Part shown: positions 6,575 through 63,000 of the stretch, in pieces
Layout of the letters: each line of letters opens with the position of its first letter
Position numbering within the stretch: the first letter of the stretch is position 1
Source of the DNA: Squalus acanthias
Taxonomy: Eukaryota
Length of the DNA stretch: 64,000 bases
Assembly: GCA_030390025.1 (NCBI GenBank)
Contig: CM059431.1
Coordinates: 100,070,001 to 100,134,000, forward strand
Reading direction: 5' to 3'
Notes under the pieces: model-generated
What the model saw: only the letters and a program-made list of their open reading frames with translations
Told to the model about the DNA's origin: nothing
Databases searched by the model: none
Program-made: the position numbers and the translations under genes

Positions 6575-7567
6575 AAGAAAGAACTTGCGTTTCTACAGCA
6601 CCCTTCACCACTTCAGGACGTCCCACAGCGCTTCACAGCACTTTTGGAGTGTGGTCACAGTTGTAATGTAGGAAACGCGGAAGCCAATTTGCGCTCAGCA
6701 AACAGCAACAGGATAATGACCAGGTCATCTGTTTTAGTGATGTTGGTTGAGGAATAAATGTTGGCCAGGACACCGGGGAGAACTCCCCTGCTCTTCGTTG
6801 AAATAGTGCCCTGGGATCCTTTATGTCCACCTGAGAGAGCAGACGGGGCCTCGGTACAAAAGACGGCACCTCCGACAGTGCTGCACTCCCTCAGTACTGC
6901 CCCTCCGACAGTACTGCACTCCCTCAGTACTGCCCCTCCGACAGTGCGGGGCTCCCTCGGTACTGCCCCTCCGACAGTGCGGGGCTCCCTCGGCACTGCC
7001 CCTCCGACAGTGCGGCGCTCCCTCGGTACTGCCCCTCCGACAGTGCGGCGCTCCCTCGGTACTGCCCCTCCGACAGTGCGGCGCTCCCTCAGTACTGCCC
7101 CTCCGACAGTGCGGCGCTCCCTCAGTACTGCCCCTCCGACAGTGTGGCGCTCCCTCAGTACTGCCCCTCCGACAGTGCGGCGCTCCCTCAGTACTGCCCC
7201 TCCGACAGTGCGGCGCTCCCTCAGTACTGCCCCTCCGACAGTGTGGCGCTCCCTCAGTACTGCCCCTCCGACAGTGCGGCGCTCCCTCAGTACTGCCCCT
7301 CTGACAGTGTGGCGCTCCCTCAGTACTGCCCCTCCGACAGTGCGGCGCTCCCTCAGTACTGCCCCTCCGACAGTGCGGCGCTCCCTCAGTACTGCCCCTC
7401 CGACAGTGCAGCGCTCCCTCAGTACTGCCCCTCTGACAGTGTGGCGCTCCCTCAGGACTGCGCCGGGAGTGTCAGCCTAAATTTTTGTGCTCAAGTTTCT
7501 GGAGTGGGATTATGAACCCACAGCCTTCTGATTCAGAGGCGAGAGCACTGCCCACTGAGCCACAGCT
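6575..7567 (-). mobile_element. DeuSINE with internal 33-bp VNTR (18 units, ~6870-7461)
   Basis: Unit ctccgacagtgcggcgctccctcagtactgccc between head and Deu domain; tail begins ~10 nt after the exon 5 donor. Confidence 0.9.
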
Positions 7568-7674
7568 GGTGCCTATGTTGAGGTGCTCTGTATCATTGTT
7601 ACAGATTTAGGAATGATGAGCAAAATATTAGTAGCAATACATCGTTTACATCTTGTCACATTCTTTTGCTACAG

Positions 7675-7803
7675 GCGATCGGGAGAACAAATCTGGAGTG
7701 TGTCCATTTTCCTCCTCTTCTTTCTGCTGTTGTATGGAATTCTGGGAGTTCAGATGTTTGGCACTTTCACCTACCATTGTGTCACGAACGATACCCAACC
7801 AGG
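7675..7803 (+). CDS. NALCN: NALCN coding exon (exon 6 equivalent), domain I S5
   Basis: ttgctacag|GCGA...CCAGG|gtgagg; 129 nt; [42 protein letters not shown](G). Confidence 0.97.
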
Positions 7804-7954
7804 GTGAGGCCTGATTTTACAAATGTTGCTTTTCTTAATCAATATTGGGTTATATCTAATTTATTATTTTGAATTATTATCTGTGGCTCCTTTTTTCGTG
7901 TCAACAAAATTTCTTTTCAATTAACTAATCTGTTTTATTTTTACTGAAATAAGT

Positions 7955-60715: not shown

Positions 60716-60819
60716 AAGGACAAAAGACTCACACTGTGGAGTCAAGACCAAGTACAGCATTCGGGTCAAGCAAGTTAGAAAGCGCAAGGATATCTAGACC
60801 TGCCTGAGGAGTGGGTGTC

Positions 60820-61195
60820 AAGGAACATAGGAACAGGAGGAGGCCATTCAGCCCCTCGGGCTTGTTCCGCCATTCAATTAGACCATGGCTGATCTGCATC
60901 TCAACTCCAGCTACCCGCCTCGGTTCTGGATCCCTTAACACCCTTGTCTAGCAAAAATCTCTCAATCTCAGTTTTGAACTTTTTAATTGCCCCCCAACCT
61001 CAATAGCTTTTTGGGGGAGAGAGTTCCAGATTTCCACCACCCTTTGTGTGAAGAAGTGCTTCCTGACATCACCCCTGAACGGCCTGGCTCTAATTTTAAG
61101 GTGATGCCCCCTTGTTCTGGACTCCCCCCACCAGAGGAAATAGTTTTTCTCTCTCTACACTGTCAACTCCTTTAATCATCTTAAACACCTCGATT
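60820..61195 (-). mobile_element. CR1 3' fragment
   Basis: Same subfamily as 2975-3450. Confidence 0.85.
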
Positions 61196-61975
61196 TCCCG
61201 ACTGTCGAGCATCAACTTCACGTTCCTCACCAGCAGCGTTTAAATGATTAAATTTGAATTTGGGTCGCGGTGCAGGCTGGCGCGCTCTCGTCCGTTTCGG
61301 GTTCAAGTCGAACTTCTCCTTTCGGAGAAGAGGTTGAGAAACTGATGACATTGGAGAAGTTTTTTTTTTAAGACTCTACTTTTACCTTGTAGCTGACTTC
61401 ATTTTGCAAAATAGTACAGTTTGAGTTTTTAAAATGTGCACCACTGTTGGAGAAACACAAGACCTTCTCCAAAAAGAGCGCCGTTTCTCTGACATGGGCA
61501 GAGACCAGCTGTCAAAATGTCCCCTCGTCTCTCACTGAAACAAGTTTCCAAATTTCCCAAAGTTACCTCAAGTGAGAAGAGAGCTGCCATTTTATTCTGA
61601 TCCCTGAAGTTAAACTGATGTCAAGCTGAGTTTTAACCAGACTGGCATGGGAATGATGTCTTTTCTGTACTGTTCACATGAACAGGGCAAATATTTCAGT
61701 AACCTTCATCTGGCATCAGGCCACAGACTGTTATTGCTTCGACAGGAAGATCTTGAATCGCTGCGCCTGCTGAGAATAGCAAACTTGCTCACCGACTAAT
61801 CATTAAAAAACAAGACGGATCGTTAGATGCTTCCCGATGAATATTCATCGTCTCTTGTGGTTATTTTAAATGTTGATTTGATGCAAGAAGTTATCGATTC
61901 TCGCTCAGCAACTTTTTATTTATTCATTTTTTTAATTTTAATTTATTCATTCATGGAATATGGCCAGCATTTATT

Positions 61976-63000
61976 GTGTCAGCCGTGACTCAGTGGGCAG
62001 CACTCTCGCCTCTGAGTCAGAAGGTTGTGGGTTCAAATCCCACTCCAGAGACTCGAGCACATAATCTGGGCTGACACTCCAGCGCAGTACTGAGGGAGCG
62101 CCGCACTGTCAGAGGGGCAGTACTGAGGGAGCCCTGCACTGTCGGAGGGGCAGTACTGAGGGAGTGCCGCACTGTCAGAGGGGCAGTACTGAGGGAGCGC
62201 CGCACTGTCGGAGGGGCAGTACTGAGGGAGTGCCGCACTGTCGGAGGGGCGGTGCTGAGGGAGCCCCGCACTGTCGGAGGGGCAGTACTGAGGGAGCTCC
62301 GCACTGTCGGAGGAGCAGTACTGAGGGAGCGCCGCACTGTCGGAGGGGCAGTACTGAGGGAGCGGCGCACTGTCGGAGGGGCGGTACTGAGGGAGCGGCG
62401 CACTGTCGGAGGGGCGGTGCTGAGGGAGCGCTGCACTGTCGGAGGGGAAGTACTGAGGGAGTGCTGCACTGTCGGAGGGGCAGTACTGAGGGAGCGCCGC
62501 ACTGTTGGAGGGGCAGTACTGAGGGAGCGCCGCACTGTCGGAGGTGCAGTACTGAGGGAGCGCCGCACTGTCGGAGGGGCAGTACTGAGGGAGCGCCGCA
62601 CTGTCGGAGGGGCAGTACTGAGGGAGCGCCGCACTGTCGGAGGGGCAGTACTGAGGGAGCGCCGCACTGTCGGAGGTGCCGTTTTTCGGATGAGGCGTTA
62701 AACCAAGGCCCGTCTGCCCTCTCAGGTGGATGTAAAAGATCCCATGGCCACTATTTCGAAGAAGAGCTGGGGAGTTCTCCCCGGTGTCCTGGCCAATATT
62801 TATCCCTCAACCAACATCACTAAAACAGATCATCAGGTCATTATCACATTGCTGTTTGTGGGATCATGCTGTGCGCAAATTGGCTGCCATGTTTCCTACA
62901 TTACAACAGTGACAACACTTCAAAAGTACTTCATTGGCTGTAAAGCTTTGGGACGTCCTGAGATCGTGATAGGCGCGAAAGAAATGCAAGTCTTACTTTT
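61976..63000 (+). mobile_element. DeuSINE with 33-bp VNTR (18 units, ~62084-62675)
   Basis: Complete head, VNTR, Deu domain and tail. Confidence 0.9.

What the first reader, a model, noticed from the sequence alone, without database searches (positions are those of the whole stretch)
6870..62675. DeuSINE subfamily carrying a 33-bp VNTR (SVA-like head-VNTR-body architecture)
Seen: five SacSINE1-like copies carry 18 (6870), 16 (17586), 10 (20272), ~10 (46070) and 18 (62084) tandem units of ctccgacagtgcggcgctccctcagtactgccc at the same position. Copies at 4937, 13775, 37521, 46411 and 54343 have one unit. In single-unit copies the segment is bounded by the microhomology acGgcac...acTgcac, so slippage predicts the junction actgcAcctcc. 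Nearly all units at all five loci instead have actgcCcctcc; the predicted form appears once (ggaggtgcagt, ~62540-62550). Inference: one duplication plus one substitution arose in a master gene, which spread the array by retrotransposition; the arrays then changed length locally. Adjacent units share variants (gg-ctc/cggta at 6950-7060, actgac at 17780-17980), consistent with ongoing slippage.
Basis: partly seen in the sequence, partly recalled or inferred. Interest (0 to 1): 0.7.

Follow-up and report, generated by a model that had tools for sequence, protein, structure and literature searches.

The report
Shark SINE breeding a 33-bp minisatellite
Five of ten near-complete copies of a common shark jumping element in this stretch carry 10-18 tandem copies of one 33-base piece of themselves, and these repeats are far more alike than the old elements that hold them, so they are still being renewed; repeats born inside such elements are known in mammals, and I found no report of this one.

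Summary
Five SacSINE1-like SINE copies around an NALCN gene carry arrays of 18, 16, 10, 10.4 and 18 units of a 33-bp piece that five other copies hold once. 65 of 67 junctions carry the derived C, so the unit probably arose once. It comes from a hairpin of the SINE, which the array form weakens.

The single-master-subfamily reading is only partly supported. Array copies are no more alike in their bodies (86.0%) than single-unit copies (86.9%), fall in both tail types, and do not cluster on a tree (monophyly not rejected, p-AU 0.10). All five arrays share one consensus and are 2.7-fold less diverged than their hosts (39 non-CpG differences against about 108 expected). Neutral local slippage cannot give that. 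Turnover biased to perfect units can, as could conversion between loci. A whale-shark gene model holds the same repeat, so it is old.

It is a quasi-oligomeric SINE, not SVA-like: the repeat is the SINE's own sequence. Verdict: new variant of a known kind.

The parts
6572..7573 (-). SINE copy V6870 with 18-unit array (array 6870-7463); its tail starts a few bases after an NALCN splice donor
   Evidence: body non-CpG divergence 22/245, array 8/486
16510..18220 (-). SINE copy V17586: head 18114-18220, 16-unit array 17586-18113, body 17418-17585, unrelated insertion about 16674-17417, tail 16510-16673
   Evidence: body 17/273, array 10/432
19945..20711 (-). SINE copy V20272 with 10-unit array (20272-20601); least diverged body; tail type shared with single-unit copies 4937, 13775, 37521; no run of four T on the sense strand
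45741..46410 (-). Headless SINE copy V46070; 10.4-unit array 46070-46410 fused head-to-head to the inverted copy S46411
61975..63000 (+). SINE copy V62084 with 18-unit array (62082-62675); inserted into another repeat with a 7-bp flanking direct repeat
4935..5408 (-). Single-unit copy S4937 (unit 5268-5300), 474 bp
13773..14231 (-). Single-unit copy S13775 (unit 14091-14123)
37522..37914 (-). Single-unit copy S37521 (unit 37848-37880); head replaced by an L2-like 3' fragment at 37917-38030
46408..46768 (+). Single-unit copy S46411 (unit 46499-46531) with a ~97-bp deletion right after the unit
54342..54790 (+). Single-unit copy S54343 (unit 54445-54477)
21034..21463 (.). Two partial copies of the same SINE (21034-21339 +, 21368-21463 -); further fragments at 24714-24863 (+), 42731-43045 (-), 48525-48754 (+)
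53470..53944 (-). 3' end of a LINE that shares its last ~25 bases with the SINE tail; candidate partner (the L2 label rests on a recalled ORF2 motif)
6425..6565 (+). Exon of the host gene NALCN (residues 126-171 of solved NALCN chains)
   Evidence: E 2e-21

Best explanation
An old minisatellite born once inside a shark tRNA-headed SINE, carried by retrotransposition in more than one source lineage and kept young by biased turnover at each locus. (1) Shown: the 33-bp unit is the loop and arm of a long hairpin just behind the SINE head. It is bounded by a 7-bp near-repeat and is itself a degenerate 16/17-bp dimer. (2) Inferred: one slippage duplicated it, and three A-to-G/C changes (positions 13, 16, 32) weakened the hairpin and fixed the junction. 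(3) Inferred: array-bearing SINE RNAs were copied by an L2-type LINE, and source elements swapped heads and tails, so arrays occur with both tail types. (4) Inferred, shown feasible by simulation: after insertion the arrays gain and lose units, mostly where neighbours are identical. This purges new mutations, so arrays stay near one consensus and keep their CpGs while the host SINE decays. No host function is implied.
For: Hairpin: z -2.7, 1 of 200 shuffles as stable. Most single-unit segments fold at -22 to -28 kcal/mol (4 of 5; S54343 -15) against -17 to -18 for array interiors. Stem pairs: 5 of 9 Watson-Crick in the array consensus, 6-8 of 9 in single units. Dimer match 11 of 16. One junction, 65 of 67, and one consensus in 5 of 5 arrays. 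SINE tail shared with a LINE 3' end. V62084 has a 7-bp target duplication. Mosaic tails also occur among single copies, e.g. S46411. With duplication weighted to units identical to a neighbour (weight of others 0.1 or less, 3-20 turnovers per unit), the observed low divergence with no fixed difference occurs in 8-81% of runs. Variants recurring between loci can be structure-templated hot spots: all 4 locus-level T>C changes fall on the 2 of 6 T sites that restore the stem (p 0.012), and C14 equals inversion of a 7-bp quasi-palindrome. Whale shark XP_048449719.1 carries about 4 units in frame.
Against: It needs a strong bias and substantial turnover, which is assumed and not measured. Under those settings inherited minority variants survive in at most 23% of arrays, yet four transversion variants are shared between loci against about 1 expected (Poisson p 0.016; expected value counted by hand, p). 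Single-unit alleles (A13 with A16, linked, p 0.001, counting G-to-T at 13 with A) occur inside arrays, and CpG changes at these two sites are lopsided (25 to CA, 5 to TG), which suits conversion from single-unit copies. Only 1 of 7 copies tested has a clear target duplication. Ten copies from one gene region are a small sample.
Confidence: 0.5

Rival explanations
1. Arrays move between resident SINE copies at the DNA level. A break at the hairpin of a single-unit copy is repaired from an ectopic array (strand invasion, or reintegration of an array circle), turning it into an array copy. Continued interlocus conversion keeps all arrays alike.
For: Between-array unit distance (5.9%) equals within-array distance (5.7%) although hosts differ by about 14%. 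Arrays sit in both tail types. Single copies are not collapsed arrays (C26 in 4 of 5 singles, 3 of 72 array units). Single-type units lie at one end of three arrays (6870, 17586, 20272). Shared transversions exceed chance (p 0.016), one of them (A31) in the two arrays 2.2 kb apart. Precedent: Rsp-like satellite entering 1.688 clusters (PMC7403614, passages).
Against: Purely local biased turnover already fits the divergence data. A16 enrichment in terminal units is not significant (5/18 vs 5/54, p 0.11). The head of V20272 is not closer to S4937 than to other array copies (88-89% to four copies), so one crossover between source elements explains it. No array outside a SINE occurs in the window, and flanks next to arrays show no sign of conversion (V6870 has a deletion beside its array).
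Confidence: 0.3
2. One reading: one master gene with the array founded a subfamily; later change is neutral slippage within each array.
For: Shared junction and consensus. Four of five array copies share a tail type and fall together on the tree (with one single copy, unresolved). The AU test does not reject monophyly (p 0.10). The youngest host (V20272) has array and body divergence alike (1.1% and 1.8%).
Against: 39 non-CpG differences in 1,944 sites against about 108 expected; joint probability with no fixed difference at most 0.0025 over 16 turnover settings. Array copies are no closer to each other than to singles. 0% of 200 bootstrap trees make them one group.
Confidence: 0.1
3. Each array arose de novo at its locus from the local single unit, as for mouse B1-derived and Alu-derived minisatellites.
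For: The site is duplication-prone (hairpin, microhomology, internal dimer). Contigs of another organism show tandem-duplication joints at this and at other parts of the same SINE (table 5c).
Against: No array has a private fixed difference (0 of 165 consensus sites), and all carry the same junction base, which slippage does not predict.
Confidence: 0.05
4. Assembly artefact (read stutter or repeat over-expansion).
For: No read-level check of array length was possible.
Against: Arrays carry ordered, locus-specific variant patterns with biological signatures, and the repeat appears in an independent shark assembly.
Confidence: 0.02

Closest known systems
SacSINE1 / SacSINE1-CM Deu-SINEs of cartilaginous fishes (PMC5499810: read parts 1-3 of 6; PMC2746220: passages; Nishihara 2006 not held)
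   Same: tRNA-like head, length near the published 463 bp (449-474 bp here), tail shared with a LINE 3' end, very high copy number.
   Different: The parts read describe no internal tandem array. Array copies reach 770-1,030 bp. Identity to the consensus was not testable.
Quasi-oligomeric SINEs such as CHRS (SINEBase, PMC3531059: passages)
   Same: A motif of the SINE's own body repeated in tandem more than 10 times; SINEBase counts such variants as one family. This is the best category.
   Different: The CHRS motif is ~20 nt and degenerate. Here the unit is 33 bp, about 96% alike, and less diverged than its hosts.
LTR10A/F internal VNTR (bioRxiv 10.1101/2021.10.28.466196: passages)
   Same: A 28-30-bp unit inside a dispersed element, varying in number between fixed insertions.
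   Different: An ERV LTR, restricted to defined subfamilies, with shown polymorphism and enhancer effect; none of these is shown here.
SVA/LAVA VNTR composites (PMC4432496: passages)
   Same: GC-rich central array in a non-autonomous retroelement; microhomology-driven length change at the DNA level.
   Different: Those are composites of unrelated modules, mobilised by L1, with subfamily-specific unit orders. Here the unit is native to the SINE, single-unit copies coexist, and the tail is L2-type.
SINE-derived VNTRs: mouse B1-derived (GGCAGA)n and Alu-derived minisatellites (seen only as table rows and references in PMC9659126)
   Same: Many tandem arrays expanded from one site of a SINE.
   Different: Recalled as arising independently per locus; here all loci share one derived junction and one consensus.
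Rsp-like satellite spread into 1.688 clusters in Drosophila (PMC7403614: passages)
   Same: A model for the rival mechanism: the same junction at many loci, spread through an older abundant repeat.
   Different: There two unrelated satellites are joined; here the array derives from its own host, and retrotransposition is an available route.

Membership tests
SacSINE1-type Deu-SINE | tRNA-derived head with A and B boxes | tested here: inconclusive
   A- and B-box-like motifs are visible in alignment A1 (motifs recalled). Rfam tRNA matches only the T-arm, 15.9 bits, E 0.7, in one of two heads tested. ARAGORN calls none of these heads.
SacSINE1-type Deu-SINE | Length about 463 bp, non-coding | tested here: met
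   Single-unit copies 449-474 bp; 463 bp from PMC2746220.
SacSINE1-type Deu-SINE | Deu central domain / identity to the SacSINE1 consensus | not testable with these tools
   Consensus not available: supplements not held, original paper not held.
SacSINE1-type Deu-SINE | 3' tail shared with an L2 LINE | tested here: met
   Last ~25 bases match the end of a LINE 3' fragment at 53470-53944 present in about ten copies in the window. Calling it L2 rests on a recalled motif.
SacSINE1-type Deu-SINE | Interspersed, high copy, in cartilaginous fishes | tested here: met
   10,688-303,119 contigs laid in 4 of 4 runs from four coded organisms; the unit occurs in a Rhincodon typus gene model.
Discrete VNTR subfamily (one master) | Monophyly on non-array positions | tested here: inconclusive
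   3 changes, 0% of bootstrap trees, both tail types; AU p 0.10.
Discrete VNTR subfamily (one master) | Array as old as its host copy under neutral change | tested here: not met
   39 vs about 108 expected differences.
SVA-type VNTR composite | VNTR and flanking modules of separate origin | tested here: not met
   The unit is present once in ordinary copies at the same position.
SVA-type VNTR composite | Hexamer head, L1 mobilisation, poly(A) tail | tested here: not met
   tRNA-like head and LINE-shared tail ending in T-rich repeats.
VNTR (strict sense) | Length polymorphism between individuals | not testable with these tools
   Only contigs were offered; they cannot give array length.

The most novel reading that the evidence does not exclude
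The 33-bp array acts as a second-order mobile unit. It uses the very many single-unit SINE copies as landing sites and converts them into minisatellite loci by DNA-level templating at the hairpin, so one GC- and CpG-rich minisatellite sequence is kept uniform across a shark genome independently of retrotransposition, in lineages that include the whale shark.
Probability: 0.25. Interest if true: 0.65.

Novelty: new variant of a known kind. Interest (0 to 1): 0.42.

Why it matters
If half of the near-complete copies in this window are representative, shark genomes hold a very large number of loci of one minisatellite, each inside a host whose divergence dates the insertion. That would be a natural experiment on how minisatellites are born, purge mutations and possibly exchange between loci. 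Practical points: each array adds 20-46 CpGs at 66-69% GC. The unit is a multiple of three and open in five of six frames, so it can enter gene models, as in the whale-shark TRIM16-like entry, and confuse annotation. The loci may serve as multilocus markers if polymorphic. No function is shown.

Tried and rejected
No whole genome is held, so the genome-wide tree was impossible. The junction or unit pattern gave 0 matches in viral, metagenome and prokaryote collections.

Protein searches in three frames gave little. One clear named hit; none among longer proteins; 0 of 150 listed representatives carry the repeat, with one chance motif match. Two unnamed Logan proteins have array-like stretches, P0157 about three units and P0156 decayed, and three others look unrelated. 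The Atlas gave no hit at 0.9 or above.

Contigs laid on single-unit copy S4937 did not report array junctions for the window's own organism among the rows shown (2,516 joints and 3,157 loose ends not shown), so they give no array count. No RNA holder was listed on record.

G-quadruplex idea: no four G-tracts with loops up to 15 nt in any array; dropped. A double-crossover argument for V20272 was dropped because its head does not pair with S4937. Target duplications: clear in 1 of 7 copies.

Nine paper searches found no description of this array. Repbase, Dfam and SINEBase libraries, paper supplements and subscription papers were not available and may describe it. Earlier scan notes had nothing on it.

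Full report
Observation. The window is repeat-rich vertebrate DNA holding an NALCN exon at 6425-6565. One ~470-bp SINE occurs in ten near-complete copies and five fragments. Five copies carry a period-33 array at the same position, about 110 bp behind the 5' end: 18, 16, 10, 10.4 and 18 units. Five carry the unit once. Of 67 junctions, 65 have C at unit position 32, one has A and one T; all five single units have A there.

The host element. It has a tRNA-like head (weak Rfam T-arm match) and single-unit lengths of 449-474 bp, against 463 bp published for SacSINE1 (PMC2746220, passages). Its tail is shared with a LINE 3' end in the window, as described for SacSINE1 and L2-2 (PMC5499810, parts 1-3 of 6). 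Contigs of four runs from four coded organisms, 4 of the 24 runs listed, pile on a single-unit copy in numbers of 10,688 to 303,119. I could not align it to the SacSINE1 or Deu consensus, so the family name remains a good fit, not a test.

Anatomy of the unit. In single-unit copies the unit is the loop and arm of a long hairpin (z -2.7). It is bounded by a 7-bp near-repeat and is a degenerate 16/17-bp dimer (11 of 16 alike). The array consensus differs from the best-pairing single type at positions 13, 16 and 32, all A to G or C. This lowers Watson-Crick stem pairs to 5 of 9, from 6-8 of 9, and makes three CpGs per unit, of which 172 of 216 are intact. Depth-weighted shares computed by hand, biased towards the reference copy, show G16 at 41% in the window's organism and 17%, 22% and 7% in the others. 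In the last organism the well-pairing type (A13, A16, T26) and one tail type dominate, which suggests it is ancestral. That step is inference.

Is it one subfamily? Body identities are 86.0% among array copies, 86.9% among singles and 86.6% between them. Two linked tail sites split the copies into two types: V20272 goes with S4937, S13775, S37521 and one fragment, and the other four array copies go with S46411, S54343 and three fragments (V46070 matches at one of the two sites). On trees of the ten long copies (fragments left out) the array label needs three changes, no bootstrap tree makes it one group, and shuffled labels do as well in 226-229 of 500 cases. The tree is poorly resolved and the AU test does not reject one clade (p 0.10). 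Singles are not collapsed arrays, since C26 is in 4 of 5 singles but 3 of 72 array units. Array state and tail type therefore occur in all four combinations, which needs recombination or conversion. The head of V20272 does not favour S4937, so one crossover between source elements suffices.

The arrays look younger than their hosts. All five arrays have the same consensus. Units differ by 5.7% within and 5.9% between arrays. Non-CpG divergence is 1.1-2.6% in arrays and 1.8-9.0% in the bodies. In total 39 differences in 1,944 sites are seen where about 108 are expected. Neutral turnover at any of 16 settings gives so few together with no fixed difference in at most 0.25% of runs. Caveat: body divergence is measured from a window-level consensus and may include subfamily differences, with six suspected diagnostic columns removed. 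Pairwise figures show the same gap (bodies 6-14%, arrays 2-5%).

What explains it? If units identical to a neighbour duplicate preferentially, local turnover alone fits in 8-81% of runs at weights of 0.1 or less and 3-20 turnovers per unit, and in up to 14% at weight 0.3. Interlocus exchange is then not required. Pointing to exchange are four transversion variants shared between loci against about one expected (p 0.016), linked single-type alleles inside arrays (p 0.001), and the poor survival of inherited minority variants under biased turnover. Against reading too much into this, 36 of 80 unit-level variants restore the stem, all four locus-level T>C changes do so (p 0.012), and one shared transversion equals a 7-bp inversion, so structure-driven hot spots (a recalled mechanism) can create sharing. 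I put inheritance plus biased turnover at 0.5, interlocus conversion at 0.3, the strict single-master model at 0.1 and independent origins at 0.05.

Age and range. The whale-shark model XP_048449719.1 begins with about four in-frame units. One Asp codon there implies C or T at position 32 and the A31 variant seen here (inference from the protein). An unnamed Logan protein holds about three units with the derived junction residue, and another holds decayed units. Organism C shows a 33-base back-joint at this site and 34-38-base ones elsewhere in the SINE. The array is therefore not private to this genome; how many species share it is open.

Comparison. SINEBase treats internal tandem repeats as variants within a family and cites CHRS, with a ~20-nt motif repeated more than ten times (PMC3531059, passages). 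LTR10A/F carry a 28-30-bp VNTR (bioRxiv 2021.10.28.466196, passages). SVA and LAVA remodel their VNTR at DNA level through microhomology (PMC4432496, passages) but are composites of unrelated parts, which this is not. B1- and Alu-derived minisatellites were seen only as table rows (PMC9659126). Spread of one repeat through another is documented in Drosophila (PMC7403614, passages). Passages of two shark genome papers (PMC10620051, PMC10468316) and nine searches found no mention of this array; repeat databases and supplements were out of reach and may hold it.

Verdict. A real and apparently unreported minisatellite inside a major shark SINE, a new variant of a known kind. Its notable feature is not the architecture but the uniformity of arrays in old, mixed hosts. 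Interest 0.42.

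Noticed in passing
window 59741-60110, - strand: An HDV-like ribozyme (Rfam CPEB3 family, 44.6 bits, above gathering score) lies about 110 bp behind a tRNA-like head related to this SINE's head, whose B-box region is triplicated as 3.1 x 51 bp (59926-60083). 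Ribozyme part single-copy in the window.
   Followed up: partly
window 46400-46420: The V46070 array joins head-to-head with inverted copy S46411 at a short shared motif; V46070 lacks its head and S46411 has a deletion after its unit. Either deletion between inverted copies or two insertions joined at one break; the latter would show the array was in the RNA.
   Followed up: partly
window 6566-6575: The tail of V6870 begins within about six bases of an NALCN splice donor.
   Followed up: no
run X9, reference positions 5221-5251 and 5078-5111: Back-joints equal to 34- and 38-base tandem duplications of other parts of the same SINE in organism C (one at depth 1195), suggesting further SINE-derived minisatellites.
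   Followed up: no
window 16674-17417: A ~740-bp insertion, with palindromic-looking ends and related copies in the window, splits the body of V17586; possibly a non-autonomous DNA element.
   Followed up: no
window 8-421: A second tRNA-headed SINE family (ARAGORN calls tRNA-Thr at 8-99) with many copies; V62084 is inserted into a repeat of this kind.
   Followed up: no
window 42731-43045: A SINE fragment with a ~45-bp imperfect internal duplication in the 3' body.
   Followed up: no
window 43834-45160, 50030-51329, 7949-9902, 25520-26797: LINE fragments with long open reverse-transcriptase frames (180-372 aa), CR1-like by recall.
   Followed up: no
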